Source: an uncultured Myxococcales bacterium (GTDB lineage Bacteria; Myxococcota; UBA727; VGSZ01). From it: a DNA stretch of 58,912 nucleotides. The number at the start of each line of letters is the position of its first letter. Positions within the stretch are counted from its first letter, which is position 1. Positions 137-47,615 of the stretch are shown here, piece by piece. The stretch lies in NCBI GenBank assembly GCA_964580865.1, contig CAZONM010000002.1:1-58912 (forward strand). The letters are read 5' to 3'. The notes under the pieces were generated by a model that was not told the DNA's origin, did not search any database, and worked only from the letters and a program-made list of their open reading frames with translations. The position numbers and the translations under genes are program-made.

Positions 137-1645
<1,509 letters not shown>

Positions 1646-1738
1646 GGGGCCCCGAGGGTAATCGGCCCCATGGTAGAGGGTGGCGCCGAGGCCGCAATGC
1701 CCTCTGCGTCGGTGCCCAAGCCCCGCGCGATTTCGCCC

Positions 1739-1780
1739 TGGGATCGCGGTGTGATCGCCCTGTGATCGCCCTGTGATCGA
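1739..1780. promoter_or_regulatory. 11-bp-phased direct repeat (TGTGATCGCCC)n in the divergent mmsA / DUF3365 intergenic region
   Basis: TGGGATCGCGG (1739-1749), TGTGATCGCCC (1750-1760), TGTGATCGCCC (1761-1771), TGTGATCGA (1772-1780). The repeat is directly visible; its regulatory role is inferred. Confidence 0.55.
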
Positions 1781-1825
1781 CGAACTGCCGTCGTTCGTGA
1801 GCCCGGCCGAGATCGACGCTAGGCT

Positions 1826-2965
1826 GTGCCGATGGCGACGCGCATGCGCCCCGAGGACGACGAGCCGGCGGACGCCGCTCCGCGGTCGCGCTTCGCCACC
1901 GCCGACCTGAGCCTGGTGGACGCCAACGAGGAGCTGTCGGCGACCGCGGACCTCCCCGCGCGCGACCCCGCCGACGCCAGCGCCGATGCCGACACCGCGG
2001 TGGTGCGACGGCGACCGGGCGAGGTGAGCGGCGCGCGCGCCGCGCCCATCCCCACCCGCGTGGGCGGCGCGGCGGGCGGTGGGCTCGGGCGCGTCGGTCT
2101 GCGCGTGAAGTTCAACGCCGCGCTCCTGTTCGCCTTCGCCGTGGGCCTGGCGCTCGCGGCCTGGCTGTCGAACCGCGTGCTGCGCGACAACGCGCGCCAG
2201 GAGGTGCTGCAAGAGGCGCGCATCATGATGGAGAGCGCCTTGAGCGCGCGCGCCTACACGGCGCAACACGTCAAGCCCCTCCTCGAGGACCAGCTCGCCG
2301 AGCGCTTCCTGCCGGAGACGGTCTCGGCCTACGCCGCGACCAACATCTTCCTCTCGCTGCGCACGCAGTTCCCCGAATACACCTACAAGGAGGCGGCGCT
2401 GAACCCGCGCAACCCGGCCAACCGCGCGACCGACTGGGAGGCCGACCTGGTGAACGAGTTCCGCAACCACCACGACCGCCGCGAGCTGGCGGTGGTGCGC
2501 GACACCCCCACGGGACAGCTGCTGCACCTGGCGCGCCCGCTCGTCGTCAGCGAGGAGAGCTGCCTTGGGTGCCACAGCACCCCCGAGCGCGCCCCCGCGA
2601 CCATGATCGCCAAGTACGGCAGCGCCAACGGCTTCGGCTGGCAGCTGCACGAGGTGGTGGCGGCGCAGGTGGTGACCGTGCCCATGTCGGTGCCCATGGC
2701 GCGGGCGCGCGATGCCCTCGCCACCTTCGTGCTGCTGCTCGCCGGCGTCTTCGCGCTGGTGCTGGTGCTGCTCAACGTGCTGTTGCACTTCACGGTCATC
2801 AGACCCGTGGTGCGCATGGCGGCCATCGCCAACGACGTGAGCATGGGGCGCGAGGGCGCGGCCGACGAGGTGCTCCACGGCAGCGACGAGATCGCGTCGC
2901 TGTCGCGATCCTTCCACCGCATGCGCGTGAGCCTGGAGAAGGCCATGGCGATGCTGGACGAGTGA
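1826..2965 (+). CDS. Membrane sensor: TM - DUF3365/Tll0287-like c-type haem domain - TM - HAMP, with no output domain
   Basis: TM1 AALLFAFAVGLALAAWL; YKEAALNPRNPANRATDWE; haem motif CLGCH; GFGWQLHEVVAAQVVTVP; TM2; HAMP (IRPVVRMAAIANDVSMG..DEIASLSRSFHRM), then stop. Start may be 1826, 1832 or 1844. Confidence 0.85.
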   Translation: MPMATRMRPEDDEPADAAPRSRFATADLSLVDANEELSATADLPARDPADASADADTAVVRRRPGEVSGARAAPIPTRVGGAAGGGLGRVGLRVKFNAALLFAFAVGLALAAWLSNRVLRDNARQEVLQEARIMMESALSARAYTAQHVKPLLEDQLAERFLPETVSAYAATNIFLSLRTQFPEYTYKEAALNPRNPANRATDWEADLVNEFRNHHDRRELAVVRDTPTGQLLHLARPLVVSEESCLGCHSTPERAPATMIAKYGSANGFGWQLHEVVAAQVVTVPMSVPMARARDALATFVLLLAGVFALVLVLLNVLLHFTVIRPVVRMAAIANDVSMGREGAADEVLHGSDEIASLSRSFHRMRVSLEKAMAMLDE

Positions 2966-2966
2966 C

Positions 2967-4334
2967 ATGTCCGACGATGGCGACGCGCTGCGCCCGGCGA
3001 TGATCGGCCGCTACCGCATCGACGGCGAGCTCGGCCGCGGCGCCATGGGCACGGTGTACCTCGGCCACGACACCACCATCGATCGCGCGGTGGCCATCAA
3101 GACCATCAACCCCGACCTGGTGCAGGGCAAGCACGGCGCCGCCTGGATCGAGCGCTTCCGCCGCGAGGTGCGCGCCGCCGGGCGCTGCGTGCACCCCAAC
3201 ATCGTCACGGTGTTCGACTACGGGGACGACGACGGCTTGCCCTTCATCGTGATGGAGCGCGTGGACGGCATGGCGCTGCGCGAGATCGTGCGCGAGCGCG
3301 GCGCGCAGTCGGCCGGCAACGCCGCCGCCATCGTCGAGCAGGTCTTGTTCGCGCTCGATCACGCCCACGGCCACGGCGTGGTGCACCGCGACATCAAGCC
3401 CGCCAACATCCTGCTGCTCGACGACGGGCTCGTGAAGGTCACGGACTTCGGCATCGCGCGCCTCGAGAGCGGCGACGGCGCCGACGTCGAGCGCGTGGGC
3501 GTGGGGACGCCCGGCTACATGGCCCCGGAGCAGTTCGCCGCGGGGCGCACCGACCGCCGCGCCGATCTCTACTCGTGCGGCGTGGTGCTCTTCGAGCTGC
3601 TCACGGGCGCGCGGCCCTTCCACGGCGGCGGCGAGCAGGCCCTGCGCGACCTCGTGCAGAACGCGCCGCCGCCGCGGCCGTCGGCGGTGAAGCCGAGCGT
3701 GCCCAAGGAGCTCGACCCGGTGCTGGCGCGCGCGCTCGCCAAGGCGCCCGCCGACCGCTACCAGAGCGCCGCCGAGTTCCTCGAGGCGCTGCAGGCGCTC
3801 GGCCTGGTCGAGCGCGAGCTCGGCACCGGGCCGCTCGACACGCGCGTAGGCCGGCCGTCGGTCACGCACGCGCCCTCCTTCGACGCGGCGCTCCTCGACC
3901 GCGCCGTGCGCGGCCTCGTGCTGGTGCTCGGCCCCGTTGCGCGGGTGCTGGTGCGGCGGGTGGCGCAGCGCGCGCGCACCGTCACCGAGCTGACCGAGGC
4001 GCTCGCGGCCGCCATCCCCGACGACACCGAGCGCCGGCGGTTCCGCGAGCTCATGGGCGGCGCGCCCGTGGCGGACGGCGACGAGCGCACGGTGCCCGAC
4101 GCCGGCGCCAGCTCGTCGAGCCACATGCCCACCGCCCTGGGCGTGTTCGACCAGGCCACCCTCGAAGGCGCCCGTCGCGACCTCGCCGATCACATGGGGC
4201 CCATCGCCAAGGTGTTGGTGAAGCAGGCCGCGCCTCGCGCCACCACGCTGCGCGGCCTCTATGTGCTGTTGGCCGAGCACCTCTCGGACCCCGAGGAGCG
4301 CGCGCGCTTCCTGGCGCGCGCGCCGGGGTCGTAA
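2967..4334 (+). CDS. Soluble Hanks-type Ser/Thr protein kinase with a duplicated C-terminal helical module
   Basis: LGRGAMGTVY, VAIK, HRDIKPAN, DFG and GTPGYMAPE motifs; no TM segment; starts 1 nt after the sensor stop. Confidence 0.92.
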   Translation: MSDDGDALRPAMIGRYRIDGELGRGAMGTVYLGHDTTIDRAVAIKTINPDLVQGKHGAAWIERFRREVRAAGRCVHPNIVTVFDYGDDDGLPFIVMERVDGMALREIVRERGAQSAGNAAAIVEQVLFALDHAHGHGVVHRDIKPANILLLDDGLVKVTDFGIARLESGDGADVERVGVGTPGYMAPEQFAAGRTDRRADLYSCGVVLFELLTGARPFHGGGEQALRDLVQNAPPPRPSAVKPSVPKELDPVLARALAKAPADRYQSAAEFLEALQALGLVERELGTGPLDTRVGRPSVTHAPSFDAALLDRAVRGLVLVLGPVARVLVRRVAQRARTVTELTEALAAAIPDDTERRRFRELMGGAPVADGDERTVPDAGASSSSHMPTALGVFDQATLEGARRDLADHMGPIAKVLVKQAAPRATTLRGLYVLLAEHLSDPEERARFLARAPGS

Positions 4335-4337
4335 GCG

Positions 4338-4661
4338 TCACGCGGCAGGCACGCGCACGCGCGTGGCGATGGCGCCGACGACGAGCAGGATGAGCGCCAG
4401 GCCGCCCGAGATGACGCCGTTGGCGGCGGCCTCGCTGGCGCCGAGCGACAGGAGCATCACCTTCTCGGGCAGGCTGGGCGCGCCCTCGGCGGCGCGGCTC
4501 ACCAGGCGCATGCCCAGGCCATGGCCGAGCACACCCGACGCCACCACGGCGACCGCGAAGGGCGTGGCCGGCAGCCTCTTGAACGCCACCAGGCCGATCC
4601 CCGCCAGGAACACCGCCGCCGACAGCCAGCTCGCGAAACCCGCTTCCATGAACAGTTGCAT
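4338..4661 (-). CDS. Small 3-TM membrane protein (107 aa), loosely MotA/TolQ/ExbB-like
   Basis: AAGGAGG RBS before MQLFMEAGF; three hydrophobic stretches; the segment EKVMLLSLGASEAAAN recalls the ExbB/TolQ G-I-S-E-A motif. Confidence 0.6.
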   Translation of the reverse strand: MQLFMEAGFASWLSAAVFLAGIGLVAFKRLPATPFAVAVVASGVLGHGLGMRLVSRAAEGAPSLPEKVMLLSLGASEAAANGVISGGLALILLVVGAIATRVRVPAA

Positions 4662-4779
4662 TGCAGCCTCCTTGTGCACGGCAGATGGCGGCCGGCGCGA
4701 TTGTGACATGCGGATCCGCCGGCCGGGGGGACCGATCGGTAGCGTTGGCCGGCGCGCCTTGCCCTGCTAGACGCGCCCC

Positions 4780-5766
4780 ATGCTGCGCCTCGACCCCTTC
4801 CGCGTGGAGCGGCCGGCCACGGTCGACGAGGCCGTGGCGCTCCTGGCCGCCCACGGGCCGAAGGCGCGGGTCTTGGCCGGCGGCACCGACCTGCTGCCGA
4901 ACCTCAAGCACGGGCTGCACGCGCCCGAGCTGGTCGTGTCCATCGGCGCCGTGGCCGAGCTCCGTGGCGTGCGCGACGCAGGCGAGGCGCTCGAGATCGG
5001 CGCCTTGACCACCTTGGCGGAGCTGGAGCGTCACCCGCTGGTGCTGCGCCACGCGCCCGGCCTGGCGCGCGCCGCGGCGCAGGTGGCGGGGCCCCAGCTG
5101 CGGCGCATGGGCACCCTCGGCGGCAACCTGTGCCTCGACACGCGCTGCCTCTACTACAACCAGACCGCCTTCTGGCGGGAGGCGCTCGGCTACTGCCTGA
5201 AGAAGGACGGCAGCGCCTGCCACGTGGTGGCCGACGGAAAACGGTGCGTGGCCGCGGCGTCCAACGACACGGCCACCATGCTCATCGCCCTGGGCGCCGA
5301 GGTGGAGCTGCGCGCGCCGGCGGGCAGCCGGCAGGTGGCGCTCGACGCGTTCTACGTGCCCGACGGCGCCAAGAACACGGTGCTCGAGGACGGCGAGCTG
5401 GTGGTGCGCGTGCGCGTACCCAAGGCCTCGCCCGCGCGCCGCGAGGGGTACGCCAAGCTGCGGCACCGCAACAGCATCGACTTCCCGCTCCTGTCGGTGG
5501 CCGTGGCCGTCGACGTCACCGGGGCCGCGCCAGGCACGGTCGCCAGCGGGCGCTTGGTGGTGAGCGCGCTGCAGGCGCGCCCCGTGCGCGTGGGGCTCGA
5601 GGCCCTGCAGGGACGCGCGCTCGACGCCGCGGCCGTCGATGAGCTCGGGCACCTGGCGCGCGCGCGCTGCCACCCCATGACCAACATCGCCGACGACCCC
5701 GCCTGGCGCCGCGACATGGTGCCCGTGATGGTGCGGCGCGCCGTCGCCGACGCGCTCCATGCTTAG
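4780..5766 (+). CDS. hcrB: Xanthine-dehydrogenase-family FAD subunit with a [4Fe-4S] insertion; 4-hydroxybenzoyl-CoA reductase beta-subunit-like
   Basis: AGGTDLLPNL and GTLGGNL FAD motifs plus the insertion CLDTRCLYYNQ..W..GYCLK..CHV...RC, which matches the HcrB cluster-binding segment as I recall it. Confidence 0.8.
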   Translation: MLRLDPFRVERPATVDEAVALLAAHGPKARVLAGGTDLLPNLKHGLHAPELVVSIGAVAELRGVRDAGEALEIGALTTLAELERHPLVLRHAPGLARAAAQVAGPQLRRMGTLGGNLCLDTRCLYYNQTAFWREALGYCLKKDGSACHVVADGKRCVAAASNDTATMLIALGAEVELRAPAGSRQVALDAFYVPDGAKNTVLEDGELVVRVRVPKASPARREGYAKLRHRNSIDFPLLSVAVAVDVTGAAPGTVASGRLVVSALQARPVRVGLEALQGRALDAAAVDELGHLARARCHPMTNIADDPAWRRDMVPVMVRRAVADALHA

Positions 5767-6985: not shown

Positions 6986-8362
6986 ATGGTGGCCGTGCAG
7001 AAGCATGCTCTCGCAGCCCGCGTGTTGCTCGTTGACGACGATGAGGCCATCTGCGGCTTGGTCTCGAAGTACCTCGAGCACCACGGACACAAGGTCGAGG
7101 TGGTGCTCGACGGGCGCGAGATCGATCGCGCGCTGCAGTCGCCCTTCGACGTGGTGCTGCTCGACATCACCATGCCGAACGTCGACGGCCTGTCGCTGCT
7201 CGACCGCCTGGCGCGGGACCACAAGGAGCTGGCGGTGGTGATGATGACCGCCGCCACCGGCGTCGACAACATCGTCGACGCCATGCGCCGGGGGGCGTTC
7301 GACTACCTGACGAAGCCTCTCGACCTGCAGCGCCTGGCCATCGTGGTGCGAAACGCCGCCGAGCAGACCCGCCTGCGCCTGGAGAGCGACGGCCTGCGCG
7401 CCGCCATGATCCGCGGTGACGGCGGCCCCCACCTCATCTGCGGCTCGCAAGCCATGAGCGAGGTCATCTCGCTCGTCGAGCGCGTCGCCGCCTCGCGCGT
7501 GCCGGTGCTGGTGTACGGCGAGCCGGGCACCGGAAAAGAGCTGGTAGCGCAGCGCATCCACGCGCGCTCACGGCGGCGCGACGGGCCCTTCGTCACGCTC
7601 AACTGCGCGCTCAAGCCCGCGGAGCTCCTGCAGGCGCAGCTCTTCGGCGACGGGGAGCACGGCGGGCGCTTCGAGGAGGCGCGCGGCGGCACCTTGTTCC
7701 TCGACGAGGTCGGCGAGCTCGAGGCCGACCTGCAGGCCCGGCTCGATCGGCAGCTGCACGACGCGCAGCTGCAGGATCGGCGCGGCCACAACGGCGGCGA
7801 CGTGCGCGTCATCGCCTCGACGGTGCGCCACCTGCCGAGCGAGGTGTCGCGCGGCACCTTCCGCGCCGACCTGTTCTATCGACTCAACGTCTTCTCCATC
7901 ACGGTGCCGCCGCTGCGCGATCGGCAAGACGACATCGCCGCGCTCGCCCGCTACGCGCTCGCCCGCTTCGCGGCGCGGGAGAACCAGCCGCCCCCCACCA
8001 TCTCCGACGAGGTCATGGAGGCGCTGTTGCGCTACGAGTGGCCGGGCAACGTGCGCGAGCTGTTCAACACCGTCGAGCGCATGGCCCTGACGGCCAATGG
8101 CGGCGTCATTCGGCTCAGCGACCTGCCGGCCGACGTCACGGCGTCGGACGCCCAGCGCACCGGCAGCGACGGCATGACCGAGGAAGAGAAGCAGGCGGTG
8201 CGCCCGCTGCACGAGATGGAGCGGGAGCTGATGATCGCGGCGCTGCGCGAGACCGCCGGCAACGTCTCGGAGGCCGCGCGCCGCCTGGGCATCGGCCGGG
8301 CCACCTTCTACCGGCGCGCGCAGCGCCATGGGCTCACGCGCGAGGACGGCTTCCCCGGGTGA
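6986..8362 (+). CDS. NtrC-like response regulator (REC - AAA+ - Fis-type HTH) lacking the GAFTGA loop
   Basis: REC with LLDITMP; Walker A GEPGTGKE; Walker B LFLDE; FRADLFYRLNV; WPGNVREL; HTH GNVSEAARRLGIGRATFYRR. Confidence 0.9.
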   Translation: MVAVQKHALAARVLLVDDDEAICGLVSKYLEHHGHKVEVVLDGREIDRALQSPFDVVLLDITMPNVDGLSLLDRLARDHKELAVVMMTAATGVDNIVDAMRRGAFDYLTKPLDLQRLAIVVRNAAEQTRLRLESDGLRAAMIRGDGGPHLICGSQAMSEVISLVERVAASRVPVLVYGEPGTGKELVAQRIHARSRRRDGPFVTLNCALKPAELLQAQLFGDGEHGGRFEEARGGTLFLDEVGELEADLQARLDRQLHDAQLQDRRGHNGGDVRVIASTVRHLPSEVSRGTFRADLFYRLNVFSITVPPLRDRQDDIAALARYALARFAARENQPPPTISDEVMEALLRYEWPGNVRELFNTVERMALTANGGVIRLSDLPADVTASDAQRTGSDGMTEEEKQAVRPLHEMERELMIAALRETAGNVSEAARRLGIGRATFYRRAQRHGLTREDGFPG

Positions 8363-9194: not shown

Positions 9195-11369
<2,175 letters not shown>

Positions 11370-11427
11370 GCGGCGGCCACCTCCCACGGCCCCACCCTGG
11401 CGGTGCCGGGCCACGCTAGCATGCGTC

Positions 11428-12534
11428 ATGCTTGTCGCCCCGCTGCTCCTCTCGTTCGCATGTGCGGCCGCCGACGCCGAGGCGCCGCCCTCCCCGCGCG
11501 GCATCGTGCAGTGGACGGCGGCGCTCCCGGGCGCGCCGGCGCGCGGCTGCGCCACCGACGAGCAGCGCGTGTTCCAAGGGGTGATGCGACCGGTCGACAA
11601 ACGCGAGCACGCGCTGCTGGTCGCCGTCGATCGCGCCACCGGGAGCGTCGCGTGGCAACGCGAAGTTGGCCGCGGCTACCCGCACGCCGCCCCCGGCGTG
11701 GTGGGGCCACTGGTGGTGCACGGCGGCTTCTCCGGCGACGTGCTCGCGCTCGATCGCGTCACCGGCGCCGAGCGCTGGCGCTTCAAGAACGGCGACGGGG
11801 GCCTGCTGTCGACGCCGCACGTGGAGCGCACGGCCGCCGGCGAGCGCGTGTGGCTCGGCTTCATCGGCGGCGCCGTCGCCCTCGACGCCACCACGGGTAC
11901 GGAGCTGCTGCGCATCCCCATGGCGGCGGGCACCGCCGTGCTCGGGGTGCGCGACGGACGCGTCTTCGTGCATGCCATGGCCGAGAACCTGGTGCTCGCC
12001 TTCGACAGCGCCAGCGGGCGCGAGCTGTGGCGCGTCACGGGGCCGGTCATCGATCACGAGCGCCACGTCGTCGCCGGGTTTCAGCCCGAGGCCGTGGCCG
12101 TGGACCAGCGGTTCATCTACGTGCCCACCAACGTCGCCGAGACCTGGGCCGTGGAGGTGGCCACGGGCAAGAAGCGCTGGGGCTTCGAGCCCGCGCCCGG
12201 CGGCGGCAGCTTCGGCAACACGCTGGCGCTCAACGGCACCGCGCTGTTCCTGTCGTCGAGCGCGAGCAAGATGAGCACGGTGGCGCGCGTCGACGCCGCC
12301 ACCGGCGTGCTGTCGTGGCGCCGCGACCTGACGGGCATCGTGCACGGCACGCCGCTGGTGGTCGGCGACGTGGTGGTGGTGCCCACGGGCGGCGCGGGCC
12401 TGGTGGGCTTCGGCGCGCGCGACGGTGAGCCCCGCTTCACCATCGCCACCGGCGCCTCGTGGTGGGACGCGTGCAGCGCCGACGGCGTGGTGTACGTGGG
12501 CCACGAGCGCCGCAAGCTGAGCGCCGTGCGCTGA
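11428..12534 (+). CDS. Secreted PQQ-like (BamB-type) beta-propeller protein
   Basis: Signal peptide MLVAPLLLSFACAAA; repeated Trp-docking motifs (AVDRATGSVAW, ALDRVTGAERW, AFDSASGRELW, VDAATGVLSW). Confidence 0.8.
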   Translation: MLVAPLLLSFACAAADAEAPPSPRGIVQWTAALPGAPARGCATDEQRVFQGVMRPVDKREHALLVAVDRATGSVAWQREVGRGYPHAAPGVVGPLVVHGGFSGDVLALDRVTGAERWRFKNGDGGLLSTPHVERTAAGERVWLGFIGGAVALDATTGTELLRIPMAAGTAVLGVRDGRVFVHAMAENLVLAFDSASGRELWRVTGPVIDHERHVVAGFQPEAVAVDQRFIYVPTNVAETWAVEVATGKKRWGFEPAPGGGSFGNTLALNGTALFLSSSASKMSTVARVDAATGVLSWRRDLTGIVHGTPLVVGDVVVVPTGGAGLVGFGARDGEPRFTIATGASWWDACSADGVVYVGHERRKLSAVR

Positions 12535-12536: not shown

Positions 12537-14282
12537 TCAGCGGGGTGGCGCGCGCAGCACGGTCACCGACCACGGCGAAAGCGTCACCCGGAACGCGTTC
12601 TGCGCCACGGCGTCGACGGCCGCGGCGGCAGCGATCGTGGGGCCGTCGCCGTCGAGCACGAAGCGCGCGAGCTGCGCGGTGGCGGGCGCGGCCAGCGTCA
12701 GGGTGGCGTCGATGGCGTCGTCGGACTTGTTGAGCACGACCACCACCAGCGGCCCATCGGAGGCGTACACCGTCACGCGCTCGACGTCGGTGGTGCTGGC
12801 CGCCACCGACGTGGCGCCGAACGCCGCGCCGCCGCCGTCGACGTTGGTGAACGTGCGCAGGCCGGCGCGCGCGTACGGCTCGTCGCCGGCGAGCGGGTAG
12901 TACGTGGCCGCAACCACGCCCATACGCCCAAACACGCCGAGCACGTCGGCGACGGCGATGGCCCCGGAGATGTGCGAGCCGCCCCCGTAGTTCCACTCGG
13001 TGAACGACAGGCCCGTGCCCGGGTAGTGCGCGTCGATGTGCGCGAACAGCGTGGGCAGGAGCGCCACGGCGCCGCCGAGCACGTCGTGGGCGATCCAGCT
13101 GTCCTCGACGTACGTGGGATCCCACAGCGAGCGCGGCGCCTGCACGCGCTCGTCGGCGGCGGTGTCGTCCTGAGCGTCGCTCACGCGCACGCCGTCGCCT
13201 CGCGCCTCGGGGTACCAGTGCAGGTCGAGCACGTCGACCAGGCGGCGCCCGTGGGTCTGCTCGGCGTCGGCGAGGGCGTCGAGGAACCAGGGGATGAACT
13301 CGCCGTGCGCGCCCGCGTCGGGCGCGTTCTGCAGCGTGGTGTAGCCGTTGTAGCCGTAGCTGACGAAGCCGAGCACCGTGACGTCGTCGTCGACATCCTT
13401 GACGGCGCCCGCGAACGCCACCGTGCGATCGCGCAGTTCGACGTAGCTCACCGGCTCGGGGTGGATGCGCGGGTGCGTCTCCGACCAAAGATCGGGCTCG
13501 TTGTCGAGGTCGACGAGCAGCGGCACCGTCGGCCAGTGGGCGCGCACGTAGGCGAGGGCCTCGTCTTGATAGACGGCGCCGTCGCCCTCGTCCGGCGGGT
13601 CGACGAAGGCCGCGCCCTTGGCGGCGTGGTTCGCGACGAAGCGCGTCTGCAAGTAGCTCGAGCCCGAGTTGGCGACGTCGCCCACGCAGGCCGGCGGACC
13701 CTGGCCTCCGTCGCCGAGGTCGTCGTGGTCGGCGGCGACGTAGTCGACCATGGGCAGCGTCACCAGCGCCGCCGTGCCGCGCGCCTCGGCGTCGTCGAGG
13801 AGATCGACGAAGGCGTTGGCCGGGGGCGCGCTCGGCCCGCCCAGCATGGCGTCGTTCTGGTTGCACCAGTCGGTGCCCGCGTTGCTCGCGTTGTTCTCCC
13901 AGTTGTAGGCCGTCAGGCGGTTGCCGCCGCTGCGCACCACCGATGGCCGGTCTTGCGCGGCGTGTTCGCCGCCGTTCCACCCGTAGATCAGCGGGGAGAT
14001 GGGCCGACGGCCGGTGTCGACGCGCACCTGCAGCACGACGTCCGCGGCACCGGGATCGCCGGGCTCGACGATGGGGTCGCCCTCGCCTTCACCTTCACCT
14101 TCACCTTCACCTTCACCTTCACCTTCACCTTCACCTTCACCCTCACCTTCACCTTCACCTTCACCTTCACCTTCGCCCTCGCCCTCGCCCTCGCCCTCAC
14201 CGGGCACGGACGGCGGGCAGGCCGCGAGCACGGCGGCGGTGAACGGCAACGACGCGAGCGGCAGGAAGCGGCGCATGGCCAA
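12537..14282 (-). CDS. Lipoprotein glycoside hydrolase family 44 (endoglucanase/xyloglucanase-like) with a (GE)20 linker
   Basis: Lipobox VLAAC; GH44 motifs SGGNRLTAYNWENNASNAG, LDNEPDLW, DLHWYPE and FTEWNYGG. Confidence 0.85.
   Translation of the reverse strand: MAMRRFLPLASLPFTAAVLAACPPSVPGEGEGEGEGEGEGEGEGEGEGEGEGEGEGEGEGEGEGEGEGDPIVEPGDPGAADVVLQVRVDTGRRPISPLIYGWNGGEHAAQDRPSVVRSGGNRLTAYNWENNASNAGTDWCNQNDAMLGGPSAPPANAFVDLLDDAEARGTAALVTLPMVDYVAADHDDLGDGGQGPPACVGDVANSGSSYLQTRFVANHAAKGAAFVDPPDEGDGAVYQDEALAYVRAHWPTVPLLVDLDNEPDLWSETHPRIHPEPVSYVELRDRTVAFAGAVKDVDDDVTVLGFVSYGYNGYTTLQNAPDAGAHGEFIPWFLDALADAEQTHGRRLVDVLDLHWYPEARGDGVRVSDAQDDTAADERVQAPRSLWDPTYVEDSWIAHDVLGGAVALLPTLFAHIDAHYPGTGLSFTEWNYGGGSHISGAIAVADVLGVFGRMGVVAATYYPLAGDEPYARAGLRTFTNVDGGGAAFGATSVAASTTDVERVTVYASDGPLVVVVLNKSDDAIDATLTLAAPATAQLARFVLDGDGPTIAAAAAVDAVAQNAFRVTLSPWSVTVLRAPPR
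14082..14201 (-). repeat. In-frame 6-bp tandem repeat encoding (Gly-Glu)20
   Basis: The minus strand reads GGCGAG blocks followed by a long GGTGAA run; 120 nt. Confidence 0.97.
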
Positions 14283-17020: not shown

Positions 17021-18123
17021 CGCGCGGCGGGCGCGGGCGCCGCGGCAGCGGCAGCCGGCACGTCGGCGCGCCCCTCCCAGTCGGTGAAGAACGCCGCCAT
17101 CACGCCCGTGGCCACGACCGCGACGCCGGAGGCGACGTAGAAGCCGTTGGCCACCCACGCCAACGTCGTGCCGAACGCCTGCTTGGCGACGGCGTCGGCG
17201 CCGGGCTGCGGCACCTCGATCGAGAGCGTCATCTGCTGGTGGTAGTCCTGCTGCACGAACGCCATCCCCGCGCCGAAGGCCGCGCCGGTGGCCAAGAGGA
17301 CGACGCCGGTGCCGGCCCCCGTCCACACCGCCCAGGGCCGCAGCGGCGGCGGCGCGCTGTGATCGACCTGACCGGGCGCGAGCGCCGCCGTGAGGGGCGC
17401 GGCGGACGAGCCCGCGGTGAGGAGCGCGCCGTCGGCGTCGGCGGTCTCGACGTAGAACTCCAACGTGGCGCCGCCATCGTTGGCCGTGACCTCGGCGGGC
17501 AGCACGCCGCTCCAGCGCCCGGTCGCGTCGTCGCGCAACAGCGCCAGCGACGAGAACGCGGGCTCACCCTGCTTCCGGTACTGCACGCGCACCGCGCTGG
17601 CGACGGCGTTCGGGTCCTTCACCAGGTACGAGAACAGCGCCGGCCGCCCGCCGGGGAGCTTGGTCGGGTGCGCGCCCACGAGCTCCATCTCGCGGATGTG
17701 GCGCGCGCGCGTGAGCTTCCTCATCTCGTCGACGATGGCGCGCTCTTCGGCCTGCACCTTGCGGAACACGGACATGATCTTGGGAGGCGTGTCGGCCGGC
17801 AGCTCGAAGCCGGGGCGACCGCGCAGCAACGCGCGGAACGGCTTCTCGGCCTCGATGGGGTCGCCGACGATGGCGCGACACGAGCCCTCGAGCACATAGG
17901 CGTCGAGCCGCATGTCGATGGGCACCGCGTCGCCGCGCGCGAGCAGCTCGGTGACGAGCGGCAGCACGGCGTCGTACTCGAGCTGCTCGAACTGCGCGCG
18001 CGCGCGCCTGGCGAGCTCGGCGTTGTCGAGGCGGGCCGCGGCGGGCACCGGCGCCCCGGCGAGCGCGGCAGGGGCCGCGACCACGACGACGAGCGCGACG
18101 CAGGCGAGGCGCGGCATGGTCAT
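17017..18123 (-). CDS. Secreted TPR-like protein with a C-terminal hydrophobic helix pair
   Basis: Signal peptide LACVALVVVVAAPAALA; helical repeat region (ARAQFEQLEYDAV..AYVLEGSCRAIVGD..AEKPFRALL); two Gly/Ala-rich hydrophobic segments at the C-terminus. Confidence 0.65.
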   Translation of the reverse strand: MTMPRLACVALVVVVAAPAALAGAPVPAAARLDNAELARRARAQFEQLEYDAVLPLVTELLARGDAVPIDMRLDAYVLEGSCRAIVGDPIEAEKPFRALLRGRPGFELPADTPPKIMSVFRKVQAEERAIVDEMRKLTRARHIREMELVGAHPTKLPGGRPALFSYLVKDPNAVASAVRVQYRKQGEPAFSSLALLRDDATGRWSGVLPAEVTANDGGATLEFYVETADADGALLTAGSSAAPLTAALAPGQVDHSAPPPLRPWAVWTGAGTGVVLLATGAAFGAGMAFVQQDYHQQMTLSIEVPQPGADAVAKQAFGTTLAWVANGFYVASGVAVVATGVMAAFFTDWEGRADVPAAAAAAPAPAAR

Positions 18124-18335
18124 CGAGGCTAGCGCCGCGACGTGTGGCCGCGCCACTGGCGGACAGGTGGGCCACCCCGAGCCGGCGCCCGCTGCGCGGC
18201 GTTGCGGCGCACGGTCCGCGTCGAGCGCGCGCCCTGTGGCGCGCGCCGCCCAGCGATGGGCGCACCCTTGCCTACATGGCGCCTCGACGGGAGACAGGTC
18301 GCGGCCGCGCACCGCGTCCCCGCTATGCTCGCGAC

Positions 18336-20276
18336 GTGCCGCCTCCCACCACGACCACCGGCGCAGCGCCGGGCTCGGTGGCCCCGCAGCCGTCCGAGCT
18401 GGTCTTCGGCCGCTACCAGATCATCCGACGCCTCGCCGTGGGCGGCATGGGCGAGGTGTTCCTGGCGCGCCAGTCGGGCGTGGCGGGGTTCGACCGGCTC
18501 GTGATCTTGAAGAGCCTGCTGCCCGACCTGGCGGCGCAGGATGACTTCGTCGAGCAGTTCCTCGACGAGGCGCGCGTCGCCGCCACCCTCAACCACCCAA
18601 ACATCGTCAGCATCTACGAAGTGGGGCTGTGGAACGGCACGTACTTCATCGCCATGGAGTACATCCGCGGCGACAACCTCTCGCGCCTGGCGCGCGCCGC
18701 CGAGCGCGCCAAGCGGCGCATGCCGGTCGACGTCGCGGCGTTCGTGGTGCACGAGGCCGCGCAGGCGCTCGATCACGCGCATAAGGCGTGCGACCTCCAC
18801 GGCGCGCCGCTGCACATCGTGCACCGCGACGTGAGCCCGCAGAACATCATGGTGCGCACCGACGGCGTCACCAAGGTCGTCGACTTCGGCATCGCCAAGG
18901 CCGCCAACCGCTCGTCGCGCACCGCTACGGGGCTGCTCAAGGGCAAGGTGCAGTACATGGCGCCCGAGCAGGTCATGGGCGGCCAGGTCGACGGCCGCAC
19001 CGATCAGTTCGCGCTTGGCGTGGTGCTGTGGGAGCTGGTGACAGGCAAGAAGCTCTTCTCCGGCGGCAACGACATCGAGGTGCTGCGCGCGGTGCTGCAC
19101 GCGCCCATGCCGCCCCTCGTCGAGGCCGAGCCCTCCTGCCCGCCGGAGCTGTCGCGGATCGTCGAGCGCATGATCGCGCGCGACGTCGCGCTGCGCTACG
19201 CGACGCTGGCCGACGCGGCCGCCGAGCTCAAGGCGTACCTCGACGTGCGCGGCCTGAAGAACGCCCAGCAAGAGACCGCGCGTTTCGTCGCCGACACGTT
19301 GGGCGAAGAGATCTCGGCCAAGACCGTGGACCTGACGCCGTCGGGCGCCAACAACTTCGTCATCAACCTATCGCAGACCGACAAGCCGCCCACGGCGCCC
19401 ACCATGGTGACGCCCGTGGGCAAGAGCCGGGCGTCCGTGGGCATCGCCGCGGGGGCCGCGTTGGCGCTGGTGCTGGCCGCGGGCATGGCGGCGCTCCTCC
19501 TGGTGCCCGCCGAGCCACCGCCACCCGCGTCAGTGGTGGCGGCGGCGCCCAAGATCGCCGTCGACGCGCAGCCCGCGGGCGCGCGCGTGCGCGTCGACGG
19601 CGCCGACGTGGGTGCGGCGCCGGTCACCGTGGACGTCACGGCCGACGTGGAGCACGAGGTGGAGATCAGCGCGCCGGGCCATGAGCCACGGGTGGAGCGG
19701 GTGACGCTCAAGCCCGGCGACATGCGCGGCATCATGGCCATGCTCGTGAAGCAGAAGGCCACGCTCGCGCTCACCAGCAACCTCGTGGGGGCCGTGATCA
19801 CGCTCGATGACCGCGAGGTGGGCGTGACGCCGCTCGAGCTGGCGATCGAGCCCGAGCGCGCGCATGCGCTCACGGCCGAGCTCCAGCGCGGCAAGGAGCG
19901 CTATCGCTACGCGGGCGAGGTGTCGGGCGCGCCGGGGGAGCGGGTGAGTCTCGCGCTGCGGCTCGAGAAGCAGCGCGCGACCGAGGCGTGTCCGCCGGGG
20001 ACGAGCCGAGTGGGGGGGCGATGCGTAGCTCCCGCCCAACCCGAGCCCAAGGCGCCGCCCCCCGAGGCCAGCAAGGGCTTTCTGACGGTGAAGACCACGC
20101 CGTGGGCCAAGATCTCCATCGACGGTCAGCCGTGGGGCTCGACGCCCGTGGCGAAGGTGCCGCTGGCGCCGGGGACGCACACGGTGCGCCTGGTGAACGA
20201 GGACGCCGGCAAGGACGTGACCAAGAAGGTCACCATCAAGAGCGGCGAGACGCTGAAACAAGACTGGGGGCTATGA
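18336..20276 (+). CDS. Membrane Ser/Thr protein kinase with extracytoplasmic PEGA domains
   Basis: [21 protein letters not shown] and [10 protein letters not shown] motifs; one TM; about 3 PEGA-like repeats ([38 protein letters not shown]). GTG start inferred. Confidence 0.9.
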
Positions 20277-20285: not shown

Positions 20286-22484
20286 TCAGGGCGCAGGCAG
20301 CTGCCACAGCACTTCGCCTTCCGCGACCCACACGCGACCGCCAGCCTGTGCCGCGGCGGTGACGCTGTCCCGTGGCAAGTCGGGGCCGAGCATCGTCGAC
20401 AGGCCGACACTGCACGTAGCCGCGTCGATGCTGTGGCTGACGAAGCTCGCGCCCAGGCCGCCGGAGGTGAGGATGCCATCGGCGCAGATCGTCGTGAGCG
20501 CGGTGGCGAATGGGTTGTTTTCCGTGTCGCTGGCATCGGAGACGATCTCGCTGCCGTCCGCCACCTGGACCCGCTGAATGCGCGGGCCGTGACCCGTCAG
20601 GATCGCGCAGGTGTCCGAGAAGGCGTGGACCTCGGATCCGATGAGGTCCGCTGCGTAGTAGTCGTCCGCGCCCGCCGGTGGCAACAAGGTGCCGTCGTCC
20701 CAGGCGCCGATCGCCGTGTGGGCACCATCGAGCTGCGCCACACGCACCCCCGAAGACAGCGCGACGACCAGCGCGTTGCCGACGATGCCCGCGGCGCCGA
20801 TTCTCTCGCCCGGGTCGCCGGCCCCCCCCGGTCCGGCGGGGAAGACGTCGGGCGCGGCGCATGACGCGTCGCTGACGGCGCTCCAGGTGCAGCGCCGCAC
20901 CGTGTGCTCCGCGCCGTCGAACGCGACGAGCCAGAACACGTTGTCGCCGCCGGCGACCGGGTCGCGGGCGACGGCGAGCGCGTCGAGCTTGGCGGGCTCG
21001 TCGTAACCGGCAGGGGTGACGCCGAGCGAGGTCTCCGTGCCGGAGGGCGCGAAGCTCGTCAGGTTGATCCGACGCGCGCTGCCACCCGCGAGCACCGCCA
21101 GCGCCACCGCCCCCCCGTCGTCGACGAGCACCGCGCGGACCGCGCGCCCGTCGAGGGCGCGCTGGACGATCCCGTCGAACGGCGCCACGACCTTCGCCAG
21201 GCCGTTCACCAGGGGCACGAGCGCCGTGCCGGCGGAGCTCGGCACGAGCGAGCCGGAGGGACGATGCGGCAGCACCGTGGCGTGATCGGGCGGGACCAAG
21301 CTGCCCTCGCAGAACGCGGCGTCGGTCTCCCACCGCGCGACGCCGCCGACGGTGGTGGTGGCCCAAACCGAGCTGTCGCCGACGCCGCGGGCCATGCGGT
21401 GCACGTCCTTCATGCGGAAGTCGCCGACCACTGGCTCCACGGCCGCGTCGCGCGCGGCTTGCACGCCGAGGTAGCCGTACTCGCCAAAATGGATCACGCA
21501 GCCAGCGTCGGTGCGCAGCATCCCCAGGGGCACGTCGTCGCCGGCGAGGAGGAAGCCCGCGCCACGCGCCACCACATGCCACCCCAAGGGACCGCCTTCC
21601 CACAGACCCGTCCGCACCTTCTCGGCCGGGTCGCTGGTCGAGCGGGTCACCACGACGGGCGTGCCCTCCGGCGTGCGGGGCTCGAAAGCCAGCCGCGGGA
21701 TGCCGCTGCCGTCCAACAGGTCGCCGCGCGGCGTGATGACGAGGTCGCGGTTGCCGTCGAGCGTCGCCTCAAGGATGGCGCCGCTATCGACGGCGATGGC
21801 GACGCGATCCTCGTCGCCGATGCGGGTGAGGCGCGCGTCCGGCTCATCTGCGTTGAGCGACCGCATCGTCGCCACGGTGCCGAGCTGGCCGCTGCTCGAG
21901 ACCTCGATGATCGCAAGATCCAAGGTGCCCGGCTGGCCGGCAAAGGCCAAGAGCAACGTGGCCGGGTCGCCGTCCTCGAGGAGGGCGCCGGCGACCCTGA
22001 GGTCGCTGGGTCCACTAAGGCGCACCGGCACGGCCTCGGCGAGGGCGCCTCCCGGTAGCATGGCGCACACGACGTTCTCGCCGGTGCGGACCAGCACGCC
22101 TGACGACGTGCGCATGAGCTGTCCGGTGCCGGTGGGCCGGTTGGTGCCGAGGGGGTCGGGGCACCGCCCGATGGGCAGGTGGTTCCCCTCGATGGTCACC
22201 TGCTCGAACGCCCCCGCGTCGGTGATGACGATGGGCCCGTCGGCCGTGCCCGCGATCATGTCGACGATTGTGCCCACGCCGACGCGGTAGGGCGTCAGGA
22301 AACCTTGGTAGTGCGCGCCGACGCAGGTGTCGCCCTCACCCTCACCCTCGCCCTCGCCCTCGCCCTCGCCCTCGCCCTCGCCCAGGCCGGCATCGGGATA
22401 CGGCAGCGCGTCCCAATCGGGTGGGCACGCCACCACCAGCGCGACCAGCGCGAGCGATGACCCGGCCGTGAGCGCGCGCACCAT
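20286..22484 (-). CDS. Large hypothetical lipoprotein with a (GE)8 linker, probably beta-rich/propeller
   Basis: GGAGG RBS; lipobox LVVAC-PP; GE repeat followed by about 690 aa with no family I recognise. Confidence 0.7.
22335..22382 (-). repeat. In-frame 6-bp tandem repeat encoding (Gly-Glu)8
   Basis: (GGCGAG)6(GGTGAG)2 on the minus strand, followed by GGCGAC. Confidence 0.95.
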
Positions 22485-39456: not shown

Positions 39457-40005
39457 TCAGCGCTTCGTGAACGAGCAAGGCCCGATGCGCTCGCAGTCCG
39501 CCTGGATGGCGCGCCAGCCGTCGGCCCCGATGGCCTGCAGCGCCATGGGGTAGAGGATCTCGTTCTCTTTGTGGATGTGCGAGCGCAGCACCGGCACGAT
39601 GAAGTCGGCCACCTGGCACAGCCGATCGACGAACGCCTCGTCCGCCGTGGCGTCGGTGCTCACGTGGTCCTTGAGCGCACGCTTGGCCAGGCGCAGCTCC
39701 TCGTGATCGAGGCGCATCATGTGCGGCGGCCCCTCGATGCCCACCTCCTCCATGCGCGGGAACAAGGCCTGCTCCTCGCGCTGGTGGTGCGGCTCGGCGT
39801 CGAGCAGGCTCGACGCGAGCTTCACGAGCTCTTGACGTACGGCGCCATTGGGCTCGAGGCCCGCGGCGCTTTTGCGCGCCTCCACCGCGATGGCGTCGAG
39901 CCGGTCGAGAAAGCCGAGCAGCGTGTCGTGCTCCTCCATCCACACCCGCACCGGGTGGTTCGGAGGAAGCTCGCTCGGGTTGCTCTTGCCCATGGAGGGG
40001 AACAT
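39457..40005 (-). CDS. Hemerythrin/HHE cation-binding domain protein
   Basis: AGGAG RBS; EEH, HHQREEQALFP, DHEE and HIHKENEILYP metal-ligand pattern. Confidence 0.88.
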   Translation of the reverse strand: MFPSMGKSNPSELPPNHPVRVWMEEHDTLLGFLDRLDAIAVEARKSAAGLEPNGAVRQELVKLASSLLDAEPHHQREEQALFPRMEEVGIEGPPHMMRLDHEELRLAKRALKDHVSTDATADEAFVDRLCQVADFIVPVLRSHIHKENEILYPMALQAIGADGWRAIQADCERIGPCSFTKR

Positions 40006-40048
40006 GGTGGTCTCCTGACGATGTCGTTCGCAGCCGGCCCGCTCGGTA

Positions 40049-42119: not shown

Positions 42120-42137
42120 GGCGATTCCTCTCTTCTT

Positions 42138-47605: not shown

Positions 47606-47615
47606 CGCCGCCCCC

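What the first reader, a model, noticed from the sequence alone, without database searches (positions are those of the whole stretch)
1826..4334. Split haem-c sensor plus soluble Ser/Thr kinase: candidate two-gene signalling system
Seen: a TM-DUF3365(CLGCH)-TM-HAMP protein stops right after HAMP with no HisKA, MCP or cyclase domain. One nucleotide later a kinase with no membrane anchor or sensor begins. Inference: the periplasmic haem domain senses a redox/gas ligand and passes the signal non-covalently to a Hanks kinase, i.e. a two-component-like system built on Ser/Thr rather than His phosphorylation.
Basis: partly seen in the sequence, partly recalled or inferred. Interest (0 to 1): 0.68.

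Follow-up and report, generated by a model that had tools for sequence, protein, structure and literature searches.

The report
Haem sensor docked to Ser/Thr kinase
The two genes are a membrane haem-c sensor that ends in a bare HAMP domain and a soluble Ser/Thr kinase carrying a HAMP-docking tail; this split signalling system was first described experimentally in Pseudomonas in a 2026 preprint, and this is a new member from a high-GC sludge bacterium.

Summary
ORF1 (1826/1832..2965) is TM–Cache_haem (DUF3365/Tll0287, CLGCH)–TM–HAMP and stops right after HAMP. One base later, ORF2 (2967..4334) encodes a soluble PknB-like kinase.

The stop is not an error. Three independent DNA assemblies cover the junction without a difference, and the receptor ends 0–12 codons after HAMP in all 117 homologous loci (115 distinct) from other genomes.

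It shows that a Pseudomonas "CHH" receptor binds its operon kinase with nanomolar affinity, through two C-terminal helical modules of the kinase that clamp the HAMP dimer, and that NO on the haem increases phosphorylation of the HAMP.

The window pair is 43 % and 38 % identical, full length, to a Pseudomonas orthologue. It carries both docking motifs (LGPVARVLVRR, MGPIAKVLVKQ).

Three differences stand out:
- The published phospho-acceptor Thr256 is Glu343 here, and is Thr or Ser in only 14 of 121 homologues.
- There is no PP2C gene in the window.
- The receptor has an ~88-residue N-terminal extension.

In related loci, the same docking module (Pfam DUF8082) also sits on nucleotide cyclases, on a TIR protein, and alone, each directly after a CHH receptor.

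Verdict: a real system and a new member of a very recently described kind.

The parts
1640..1825 (.). Divergent intergenic region between the aldehyde dehydrogenase gene (- strand) and the sensor gene. It holds an 11-bp tandem repeat (1733-1779) and a conserved block, TCGTGAG..GACGCTAGGCTG, just before the start codon.
   Evidence: No sigma-70 consensus site was found.
1826..2965 (+). Gene for the CHH receptor (Cache_haem-HAMP). The likely true start is ATG 1832, giving 377 aa.
   Evidence: P0001 is 377 aa. It is 43 % identical, without gaps, over 291 aa to the Pseudomonas CHH receptor.
1826..2092 (+). N-terminal cytoplasmic extension of about 88 residues, rich in Ala, Arg, Asp and Pro. It is absent from the 290-aa family norm.
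   Evidence: It is conserved, with in-frame indels, in the two closest relatives L001 and L002. Most homologues are 290 aa.
2108..2176 (+). Transmembrane helix 1 (about residues 95-117).
   Evidence: Hydropathy analysis.
2186..2683 (+). Periplasmic Cache_haem (DUF3365/Tll0287-like) sensor domain.
   Evidence: Pfam PF11845, E 1.4e-39. It also matches Tll0287, PDB 5b82, at E 8e-6.
2561..2575 (+). CLGCH haem-c attachment motif (C246, C249, H250). These are the only cysteines in the protein, so there is no distal Cys ligand.
   Evidence: C, C and H are invariant in alignment A1.
2714..2785 (+). Transmembrane helix 2 (about residues 297-320).
   Evidence: Hydropathy analysis.
2792..2962 (+). Cytoplasmic HAMP domain, the last domain of the protein. 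The stop codon follows at 2963-2965.
   Evidence: Pfam PF00672. It aligns with the Af1503 HAMP.
2852..2854 (+). Glu343, the position equivalent to the published phospho-acceptor Thr256 of the Pseudomonas receptor.
   Evidence: Ungapped alignment. The position is Thr or Ser in only 14 of 121 homologues.
2967..4334 (+). Gene for a soluble Ser/Thr kinase with a C-terminal HAMP-docking tail.
   Evidence: 38 % identical over the full length to the Pseudomonas kinase.
3012..3764 (+). PknB-like catalytic domain with intact catalytic motifs.
   Evidence: Pfam Pkinase, E 1.8e-50. The best PDB matches are PknB, PknE, StkP and PknA, E about 1e-52.
3879..4061 (+). Docking module 1 (DUF8082 repeat 1, a four-helix unit). 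Its motif LGPVARVLVRRVAQ lies at 3930-3971.
   Evidence: (pLDDT 82-87).
4062..4142 (+). Disordered linker between the two docking modules.
   Evidence: pLDDT below 50 in the model.
4143..4319 (+). Docking module 2 (DUF8082 repeat 2). Its motif MGPIAKVLVKQAAP lies at 4197-4238.
   Evidence: pLDDT 88-92. It is 45 % identical to module 1 over 55 aa.

Best explanation
The two genes form a bicistronic operon for a CHH-STPK signalling pair.

**The receptor.** It is a membrane protein, by homology a dimer, that holds a covalently bound haem c in a periplasmic Cache fold. It ends in a cytoplasmic HAMP four-helix bundle with no enzymatic output.

**The kinase.** It is a soluble PknB-type Ser/Thr kinase. 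Its tail carries two pseudo-symmetric four-helix modules (Pfam DUF8082) joined by a flexible linker.

**How it most likely works.** By homology with the Pseudomonas system, one module docks under each HAMP subunit through its [ILM]GP[ILV]A[RK]xLV helix. This tethers the catalytic domain at the membrane, independently of ATP. A small ligand, most likely NO, binds the open distal site of the ferrous haem and changes the HAMP conformation across the membrane. That changes what the tethered kinase phosphorylates.

**What is shown here.** Domain anatomy, intact catalytic and haem motifs, a genuine stop after HAMP, family-wide gene linkage, the presence and predicted fold of the two docking modules, and transcription across the junction.

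**What is shown only for the Pseudomonas homologue (preprint).** Haem c incorporation, NO binding, nanomolar HAMP-tail binding, and NO-enhanced phosphorylation of HAMP Thr256.

**What is inferred for this window.** That all of this transfers to this pair. The Thr256 read-out cannot transfer literally, because the position is Glu here. The physiological substrate is therefore unknown. It could be another HAMP Ser/Thr such as the family-invariant S339, or a third protein.
For: - **Domains and motifs:**
- **Homology to the studied system:** the window pair is a full-length homologue of a P. fluorescens-group pair that holds the exact published motifs IGPLARFLVRKSLN and IGPIARI(I/V)VSRALR. The receptor is 43 % identical over 291 aa without a gap, and the kinase 38 % over both the catalytic domain and both tail modules.
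- **Predicted fold of the tail:** the AlphaFold2 model shows two four-helix units (pLDDT 82-92) and a roughly 30-residue disordered linker, as the preprint describes.
- **Gene linkage:** among 115 distinct loci, 104 have a DUF8082-bearing gene beside the receptor, and in 90 of them it is a kinase. Only 4 loci with full flanks have none.
- **Receptor always ends after HAMP:**
- **Junction verified:** three DNA runs cover it without a difference, and an RNA contig spans it.
- **No distal Cys:** only two Cys, both in CXXCH. This fits the sensory, labile-ligand class rather than the Cys/His redox class.
- **Experimental basis:** bioRxiv 10.64898/2026.05.25.727664 and 10.64898/2026.02.01.703092.
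- **Habitat:** activated-sludge and bioreactor metagenomes, where NO is a denitrification intermediate. The habitat-to-NO link is inference.
Against: - Nothing was measured on this protein pair.
- Identity to the characterised pair is only 38-43 %.
- The one demonstrated signal-dependent event, phosphorylation of HAMP Thr256, has no equivalent residue here (Glu343). The residue is not conserved in the family.
- No PP2C phosphatase gene is present in the window, so the reset mechanism is unknown.
- The preprint itself leaves open whether NO is the physiological ligand and whether kinase activity is regulated at all.
- No promoter or terminator consensus was found around the operon.
- The RNA-run contig could in principle derive from contaminating DNA (caveat printed).
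Confidence: 0.8

Rival explanations
1. The architecture is as in the best explanation, but the physiological signal is not NO. The haem would instead report periplasmic redox state (Fe2+/Fe3+), O2 through autoxidation, or another haem ligand such as CO, sulfide or nitrite.
For: - The preprint authors allow for another, unknown haem ligand.
- The homologous domain autoxidises fast.
- Related haem-c sensors such as GSU0582 and GSU0935 are discussed as redox sensors.
- The window holds no NO-metabolism genes near the operon.
Against: - In the homologue, ferric versus ferrous state changed phosphorylation much less than NO did.
- The NO off-rate of the homologue is like that of H-NOX and NosP.
- The family is very common in denitrifying and NO-producing sludge lineages such as Competibacteraceae, Accumulibacter and Methylomirabilis. 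This is circumstantial.
Confidence: 0.25
2. The information flows the other way. The kinase is constitutively tethered and modifies the receptor, as an adaptation or feedback mark comparable to chemoreceptor methylation. The receptor would then signal through some other, unidentified partner.
For: - The only substrate shown for the homologous kinase is the receptor's own HAMP.
- The authors judge direct control of the catalytic domain unlikely.
- Stand-alone DUF8082 dyads with no enzyme domain exist next to CHH receptors, so docking alone may matter.
Against: - The phospho-site is not conserved (Thr or Ser in 14 of 121; Glu here).
- The same docking module delivers cyclase and TIR domains, which are outputs, not receptor-modifying enzymes.
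- No other conserved partner gene is seen in the loci.
Confidence: 0.12
3. The split is an artefact or a decay product. Either a sequencing error or frameshift cut a single TM-haem-HAMP-kinase protein in two, or the adjacency is coincidental.
For: - Only one base separates the stop and the start codon.
- Single-base errors are common in high-GC metagenome assemblies.
Against: - Three independent DNA assemblies agree with the window across the junction, with no differences.
- All 117 homologous loci end the receptor 0-12 codons after HAMP.
- Hundreds of database homologues are 290-aa DUF3365+HAMP proteins.
- The kinase has its own start codon, with a GGACGAG Shine-Dalgarno-like stretch before it.
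- The linkage is conserved across many phyla.
Confidence: 0.01

Closest known systems
Pseudomonas azotoformans CHH receptor and its operon Ser/Thr kinase (GenBank AMN80074); Deshpande, Xu, Dunleavy, Zhulin, Crane, bioRxiv 10.64898/2026.05.25.727664, May 2026
   Same: - The receptor architecture is the same: TM, Cache_haem with CXXCH, TM, terminal HAMP.
- The kinase architecture is the same: a PknB-like domain, a linker, and two helical modules with GP(I/L/V)A(R/K)xLV motifs.
- The gene order is the same and the genes are tightly coupled.
- Homology covers the full length (43 % and 38 %) to a P. fluorescens-group orthologue that carries the exact published motifs.
   Different: - Thr256, the mapped phospho-site, is Glu343 here.
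- There is no PP2C gene downstream. Pseudomonas has one directly after the kinase.
- The receptor has an extra N-terminal extension of about 88 residues.
- The host is a 72 % GC uncultured 'Deltaproteobacteria'/Myxococcota-like sludge bacterium, outside the gamma- and beta-proteobacteria named in the preprint.
Cache_haem / DUF3365 / Tll0287 family (PF11845); bioRxiv 10.64898/2026.02.01.703092; Tll0287 structure PDB 5b82
   Same: The periplasmic domain matches the family profile (E 1e-39) and Tll0287 itself (E 8e-6), with the CXXCH motif conserved.
   Different: - Tll0287 and the P. putida protein are stand-alone 'cluster 1' proteins with a Cys/His-ligated haem and a redox-like role.
- The window protein is of the membrane-bound 'cluster 2' signalling type and has no extra Cys.
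Chemoreceptor-CheW-CheA arrays, and H-NOX or NosP sensors with their operon histidine kinases (established knowledge; H-NOX and NosP are discussed)
   Same: The working principle is the same: a sensor with no enzymatic domain of its own controls a separately encoded kinase through a non-covalent complex. H-NOX and NosP also use haem to sense NO.
   Different: - There is no homology. The output here is a Hanks-type Ser/Thr kinase, not a His kinase.
- Docking is by DUF8082 modules on a HAMP, not by CheW or P5 on a receptor tip.
- The haem is c-type and periplasmic, not b-type and cytoplasmic.
PknB/PASTA-type bacterial Ser/Thr kinases (M. tuberculosis PknB, S. pneumoniae StkP)
   Same: The catalytic domain is closest to PknB, PknE, StkP and PknA (E about 1e-52), and all catalytic motifs are present.
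   Different: The window kinase has no transmembrane helix and no PASTA domains. It obtains its sensor in trans.
Geobacter GSU0582 and GSU0935 haem-c PAS-like chemoreceptors (cited)
   Same: Both have a periplasmic c-type haem sensor domain on a transmembrane receptor, and both can bind NO.
   Different: The Geobacter proteins belong to a different sensor-domain family and have a fused MCP signalling domain. They have no separate kinase-docking system.

Membership tests
CHH-STPK system (Cache_haem-HAMP receptor plus DUF8082 Ser/Thr kinase) | The receptor has a periplasmic Cache_haem (DUF3365/Tll0287) domain between two transmembrane helices. | tested here: met
   PF11845 at residues 121-286, E 1.4e-39. 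Hydrophobic segments lie at about 95-117 and 297-320.
CHH-STPK system (Cache_haem-HAMP receptor plus DUF8082 Ser/Thr kinase) | The sensor domain has a CXXCH haem-c attachment motif. | tested here: met
   CLGCH at residues 246-250. C, C and H are invariant in 12 diverse homologues.
CHH-STPK system (Cache_haem-HAMP receptor plus DUF8082 Ser/Thr kinase) | HAMP is the last domain, with no fused output domain. | tested here: met
   HAMP covers 323-371 of 379 residues, with no other Pfam hit. The stop codon was verified in 3 DNA runs. The same ending is seen in all 117 loci.
CHH-STPK system (Cache_haem-HAMP receptor plus DUF8082 Ser/Thr kinase) | An adjacent, co-oriented gene encodes a soluble PknB-like Ser/Thr kinase without a transmembrane helix or PASTA domains. 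| tested here: met
   The kinase starts 1 nt after the receptor's stop. Pkinase E 1.8e-50. PknB is the best PDB match. No hydrophobic segment.
CHH-STPK system (Cache_haem-HAMP receptor plus DUF8082 Ser/Thr kinase) | The kinase tail has two pseudo-symmetric helical modules, each with a conserved [ILM]GP[ILV]A[RK]xLV recognition helix. | tested here: met
   - The motifs are LGPVARVLVRRVAQ (residues 322-335) and MGPIAKVLVKQAAP (411-424).
- The two modules are 45 % identical to each other.
- They align with both Pseudomonas modules.
- The AF2 model shows two four-helix units and a disordered linker.
- Relatives of the tail carry a precomputed PF26309/DUF8082 hit.
CHH-STPK system (Cache_haem-HAMP receptor plus DUF8082 Ser/Thr kinase) | The receptor's HAMP and the kinase tail bind each other physically, with high affinity. 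| not testable with these tools
   This is shown only for the P. azotoformans pair.
CHH-STPK system (Cache_haem-HAMP receptor plus DUF8082 Ser/Thr kinase) | The receptor carries covalent haem c and binds NO with a slow off-rate. | not testable with these tools
   This is shown only for the P. azotoformans receptor. Here, only the motif and the absence of a distal Cys can be read from the sequence.
CHH-STPK system (Cache_haem-HAMP receptor plus DUF8082 Ser/Thr kinase) | The HAMP connector has the phospho-acceptor Thr (Thr256), whose phosphorylation is enhanced by NO. | tested here: not met
   The position is Glu343 in the window. It is Thr or Ser in only 14 of 121 homologues. It is therefore better treated as a feature of the Pseudomonas clade than as a family-defining feature.
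CHH-STPK system (Cache_haem-HAMP receptor plus DUF8082 Ser/Thr kinase) | A PP2C phosphatase gene lies in the cluster. The preprint describes this as accessory and present in only some species. | tested here: not met
   A tblastn search with the Pseudomonas PP2C finds nothing in the 58.9-kb window. Among the loci, it hits only the Pseudomonas ones plus L011 and L065.
Classical two-component system (His kinase plus response regulator) | The sensor has a HisKA/HATPase_c transmitter, paired with a receiver-domain partner. | tested here: not met
   Neither gene has a HisKA, HATPase_c or Response_reg hit. The nearest response regulator (6986-8362) and hybrid kinase (9195-11675) are separate genes further downstream.
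PknB/PASTA receptor kinases | A single polypeptide combines the kinase domain, a transmembrane helix and extracellular PASTA repeats. | tested here: not met
   Only the catalytic domain is shared.

The most novel reading that the evidence does not exclude
The DUF8082 repeat may be a general, portable HAMP-docking adaptor, not a kinase-specific tail. Output-less CHH receptors would then be plug-and-play sensors that recruit whichever effector carries the module.

**Effectors found directly beside CHH receptors in related loci:**
- Ser/Thr kinases, in 90 of 115 distinct loci.
- Class III nucleotide-cyclase domains, in 16 loci. Five of these are kinase+cyclase+DUF8082 proteins.
- A TIR-domain protein.
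- An enzyme-less DUF8082 dyad.

**Consequence for the mechanism.** The published phospho-site Thr256 is absent from about 88 % of family members, including this window. The conserved step would therefore be ligand-dependent repositioning or release of a docked effector, not phosphorylation of the HAMP connector.

Neither the alternative effectors nor the non-conservation of Thr256 is mentioned in the preprint's main text or its supplement. No paper in the library mentions DUF8082.
Probability: 0.5. Interest if true: 0.65.

Novelty: new member of a known kind. Interest (0 to 1): 0.42.

Why it matters
**How the signalling works.** HAMP domains were thought to work only as in-line relays inside one polypeptide. 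This system uses a terminal HAMP as a docking platform for a separately encoded Hanks kinase. That links periplasmic haem-c (probably NO) sensing to Ser/Thr phosphorylation.

**What the window adds to the new preprint.**
- The system extends well beyond gamma- and beta-proteobacteria. It occurs here in a high-GC 'Deltaproteobacteria'/Myxococcota-like sludge organism. It also occurs in MAGs labelled Acidobacteriota, Krumholzibacteriota and Methylomirabilis, and in Nostoc genomes.
- The reported phospho-acceptor is not conserved across the family.
- The docking module also serves other effector types.

**Practical use.** The pair gives a compact, two-gene test bed of about 2.5 kb for transmembrane HAMP signalling and for NO sensing in wastewater denitrifying communities.

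Tried and rejected
- **Sequencing error at the stop codon.** Rejected. Three DNA runs agree with the window, and the receptor ends at the same place in every homologous locus.
- **Solved structure of the complex.** The PDB sequence search finds only kinase catalytic domains, Tll0287 and generic HAMPs. A Foldseek search with the tail model finds nothing significant. The preprint's entries are not in the PDB copies available here.
- **Pfam on the kinase tail.** The local library has no model for it. The name PF26309/DUF8082 came only from precomputed annotations.
- **PP2C partner.** None in the window.
- **Promoter and terminator consensus scan around the operon.** Nothing found. This is uninformative in a 72 % GC genome.
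- **tRNA and Rfam scans of the window.** Nothing found.
- **First neighbourhood count by tblastn and a regular expression**. It under-detected divergent tails and mis-sided overlapping frames, so I repeated it with HMM profiles. In one search, the 'up' versus 'down' labels for about 18 kinases are an artefact of stop-to-stop frames. One search shows these kinases are downstream.
- **S369 as a candidate family-specific phospho-site.** Discounted, because the archetypal Af1503 HAMP has Ser at the same position (alignment).
Full report
The window is 70-75 % GC throughout.
- ORF1 (1826..2965, +) and ORF2 (2967..4334, +) are the high-GC3 frames in this region (GC3 0.96 and 0.97).
- The junction reads GAG TGA C ATG, so one base separates the stop from the start. 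A GGACGAG stretch lies 5-11 nt before the ATG, which fits translational coupling.
- ORF1 carries Tll0287-like/DUF3365 at residues 121-286 (E 1.4e-39) and HAMP at 323-371 (E 2.7e-6), and nothing else. ORF2 carries Pkinase at residues 16-266 (E 1.8e-50) and no other domain.
- The sensor has two hydrophobic segments (about 95-117 and 297-320). Its only two cysteines are in CLGCH (246-250).
- The kinase has no hydrophobic segment and has all catalytic motifs.
- The gene caller's product in the public collection is 377 aa (P0001), and the closest relative begins at the equivalent Met. ATG 1832 is therefore the likelier start than GTG 1826.

**2. The stop after HAMP is real.**
- DNA contigs from three independent sludge or bioreactor runs cross positions 2963-2969 with no mismatch and no gap.
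- A contig of an RNA-seq run covers 2829-3399, which fits co-transcription. The tool warns that DNA can be present in RNA runs.
- In 117 loci fetched from species-representative genomes (115 distinct), the receptor frame ends 0-12 codons after the HAMP alignment.
- More than 1,300 database homologues were found. Nearly all of the 120 best listed are 286-290-aa proteins with DUF3365, with or without a HAMP hit, and no output domain; the exceptions are the 349-398-aa close relatives.

**3. The system was described recently.** A full-text search for DUF3365 found two 2026 preprints.
- The first (10.64898/2026.02.01.703092) redefines DUF3365/Tll0287 as haem-c-binding Cache domains ('sCache_heme'). 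It splits them into stand-alone redox-like proteins and signalling proteins. It shows that the P. azotoformans TM-Cache_haem-TM-HAMP protein binds NO with an off-rate like H-NOX and NosP and forms no stable O2 complex.
- The second (10.64898/2026.05.25.727664) names this the CHH receptor and makes the following points:
  - A soluble PknB-like kinase is nearly always the neighbouring gene.
  - The two proteins bind with nanomolar affinity, independently of ATP.
  - A 3.47 A cryo-EM map shows the kinase's two C-terminal four-helix modules gripping the two HAMP subunits. The contacts run through the helices IGPLARFLVRKSLN and IGPIARIVVSRALR.
  - NO on the ferrous haem raises Mn2+-dependent phosphorylation of HAMP Thr256.

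**4. The window pair belongs to that family.** A degenerate DNA pattern for the first published motif retrieved eight P. fluorescens-group genomes. In L125, the receptor (292 aa), the kinase (488 aa, carrying the first published motif exactly and the second with one conservative change, IGPIARIIVSRALR) and a PP2C gene follow one another.
- The window receptor aligns to that receptor over 291 residues without a gap, at 43 % identity.
- The window kinase aligns over the catalytic domain and both tail modules, at 38 % identity.
- The window motifs are LGPVARVLVRRVAQ (residues 322-335) and MGPIAKVLVKQAAP (411-424). The two modules are 45 % identical to each other.
- An AlphaFold2 model of residues 296-455 gives two four-helix units (pLDDT 82-92) joined by a roughly 30-residue disordered linker. 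This matches the preprint's description.
- The model has no significant match among PDB structures released up to April 2026.

**5. The gene linkage is family-wide and spans many phyla.** I built HMM profiles of the tail, the kinase domain and the receptor, and searched all reading frames of the 115 distinct loci.
- 104 loci have a DUF8082-type tail gene beside the receptor. In 90 of them it sits on a Ser/Thr kinase.
- Usually the kinase lies directly downstream on the same strand. A first tblastn pass counted 84 of 117 loci with a gap under 400 bp.
- Only four loci with full flanks have no such partner.
- The record titles of the loci include Competibacteraceae, Accumulibacter, Burkholderiales, Alphaproteobacteria, Myxococcota and Polyangiaceae. 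They also include Acidobacteriota, Krumholzibacteriota, Methylomirabilis, Vulcanimicrobiota and Nostoc. This range is wider than the gamma- and beta-proteobacteria named in the preprint.

**6. Genomic setting.** The pair is a self-contained two-gene unit.
- Upstream, on the opposite strand, is an aldehyde dehydrogenase gene (137-1639).
- Downstream, convergent, is a small two-TM protein gene (4338-4709).
- Then follow a CoxM-like FAD-binding subunit, a polysaccharide deacetylase and a sigma-54 activator with a receiver domain.
- This order is identical in the two closest relatives, both labelled 'MAG: Deltaproteobacteria bacterium'. Their flanking proteins are mostly 81-95 % identical to the window's. 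The receptor is only 73-76 % identical and the kinase 73-83 %, so the signalling pair evolves faster than most of its neighbours.
- The window sequence occurs in activated-sludge, sludge and bioreactor metagenomes.

**7. How this member differs from the characterised one.**
- (a) The mapped phospho-acceptor Thr256 corresponds to Glu343 (GAG, 2852-2854). Across 121 homologues this position is Leu, Met or Phe in most and Thr or Ser in only 14. S339, G341, D354-E355, R365, S369 and A373 are invariant. S369 is also Ser in the unrelated Af1503 HAMP, so it is probably structural. S339 is Ala in Af1503 and may be family-specific.
- (b) No PP2C gene is found anywhere in the window, and among the surveyed loci only the Pseudomonas ones, L011 and L065 show one.
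- (c) The receptor has an N-terminal extension of about 88 residues, rich in Ala, Arg, Asp and Pro. It is conserved, with in-frame indels, in its two closest relatives but is absent from the 290-aa norm.

Because of (a), the one ligand-dependent event shown experimentally cannot be the conserved output of the family. What the tethered kinase phosphorylates here remains open.

**8. The docking module is not restricted to kinases.** This was seen in related loci.
- The module is Pfam PF26309/DUF8082, a name taken from precomputed annotations. It is absent from the local Pfam copy.
- In 16 surveyed loci, the gene directly after the CHH receptor encodes a class III cyclase-homology domain followed by two or three DUF8082 modules. 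Pfam Guanylate_cyc was confirmed for L055, L077, L082, L087 and L099. L053, L091 and L103 are homologous by BLASTP. Five further loci have kinase+cyclase+DUF8082 proteins, of which L117 and L096 were confirmed by Pfam.
- A TIR_2+DUF8082 protein (P0128) lies 16 bp after a CHH receptor gene, which is frameshifted in that assembly. A 177-aa protein made only of a DUF8082 dyad (P0122) lies directly after a 290-aa CHH receptor.
- Across the whole library, a profile of the tail finds 3,292 cluster representatives. Of the 68 longer ones examined, 44 have a kinase domain, 19 TPR repeats, 3 a cyclase domain and 1 a TIR domain.
- The preprint's text and supplement mention none of these alternative partners, and no paper in the library mentions DUF8082.

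**9. Verdict.**
- It is a new member of a kind of system first described in 2026, not a new kind. This lowers the surprise value of the finding as given.
- The residual interest lies in three points: the phyletic extension, the non-conservation of the reported phospho-site, and the evidence that DUF8082 is a portable HAMP-docking adaptor for several effector classes.
- None of the biochemical steps was tested for this protein pair. They are inferred from 38-43 % identical homologues.

Noticed in passing
L077 5879-7006; L082 5881-6978; L055 3932-5026; L087 5884-6999; L099 1660-2793; L053 5905-7656; L091 5904-7601; L103 5905-7332: The gene directly downstream of a CHH receptor encodes a class III cyclase-homology domain fused to two or three DUF8082 docking modules, instead of a kinase. 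In L068, L083, L096, L105 and L117 a single protein carries kinase, cyclase and DUF8082 together.
   Followed up: yes
L126 3100-3985 and 4001-4624; L127 3107-3979 and 4001-4534: A TIR_2 protein with one DUF8082 module lies 16 bp after a CHH receptor gene, which is frameshifted in that assembly. A 177-aa protein made only of two DUF8082 modules lies directly after an intact 290-aa CHH receptor.
   Followed up: partly
window 1733-1779: An 11-bp tandem repeat (TCGCCCTGTGA, 4.3 copies) sits in the divergent promoter region upstream of the sensor gene. The two closest relatives have only about one copy. The block TCGTGAG..GACGCTAGGCTG next to the start codon is conserved. TAGGCT ends 6 nt before ATG 1832, so a leaderless or very short-leader mRNA is conceivable.
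   Followed up: partly
window 1826-4334 compared with its flanks: Against the two closest relatives (L001, L002), the flanking proteins are mostly 81-95 % identical. The receptor is only 73-76 % identical and the kinase 73-83 %. The signalling pair diverges faster than most of its neighbours.
   Followed up: no
window 17955-20276 (+): A second Ser/Thr kinase, with C-terminal PEGA domains and no DUF8082 tail. This architecture is typical of Myxococcota.
   Followed up: no
window 41208-46107 (-): A cluster of two BcrAD/BadFG-type ATPase genes and two HGD-D (2-hydroxyacyl-CoA dehydratase or benzoyl-CoA reductase type) genes. An acyl-CoA dehydrogenase (40049-41392) and an enoyl-CoA hydratase (46835-47623) lie next to it. 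This suggests an ATP-dependent, oxygen-sensitive CoA-ester reductase or dehydratase pathway.
   Followed up: no
window 4780-5766 (+): A CoxM-like subunit (FAD-binding, molybdopterin dehydrogenase type) stands alone, with no large or small subunit gene beside it. The next gene is a polysaccharide deacetylase.
   Followed up: no
window 39457-40068 (-): A hemerythrin HHE-domain protein, which could be a second O2, NO or iron sensor in the same contig.
   Followed up: no
window 14086-14174 and 22330-22383: Hexanucleotide tandem arrays (CCTTCA x 14.8; TCGCCC x 9) inside or at the edges of long open frames. On translation they would give dipeptide repeats.
   Followed up: no
window 3276-3497: Contig depth rises 5- to 20-fold in every run over the HRDIKPAN..DFG part of the kinase gene. 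Many chimeric joints and loose ends also occur there. The likely cause is k-mer sharing with other kinase genes of the community, not a feature of this locus.
   Followed up: no
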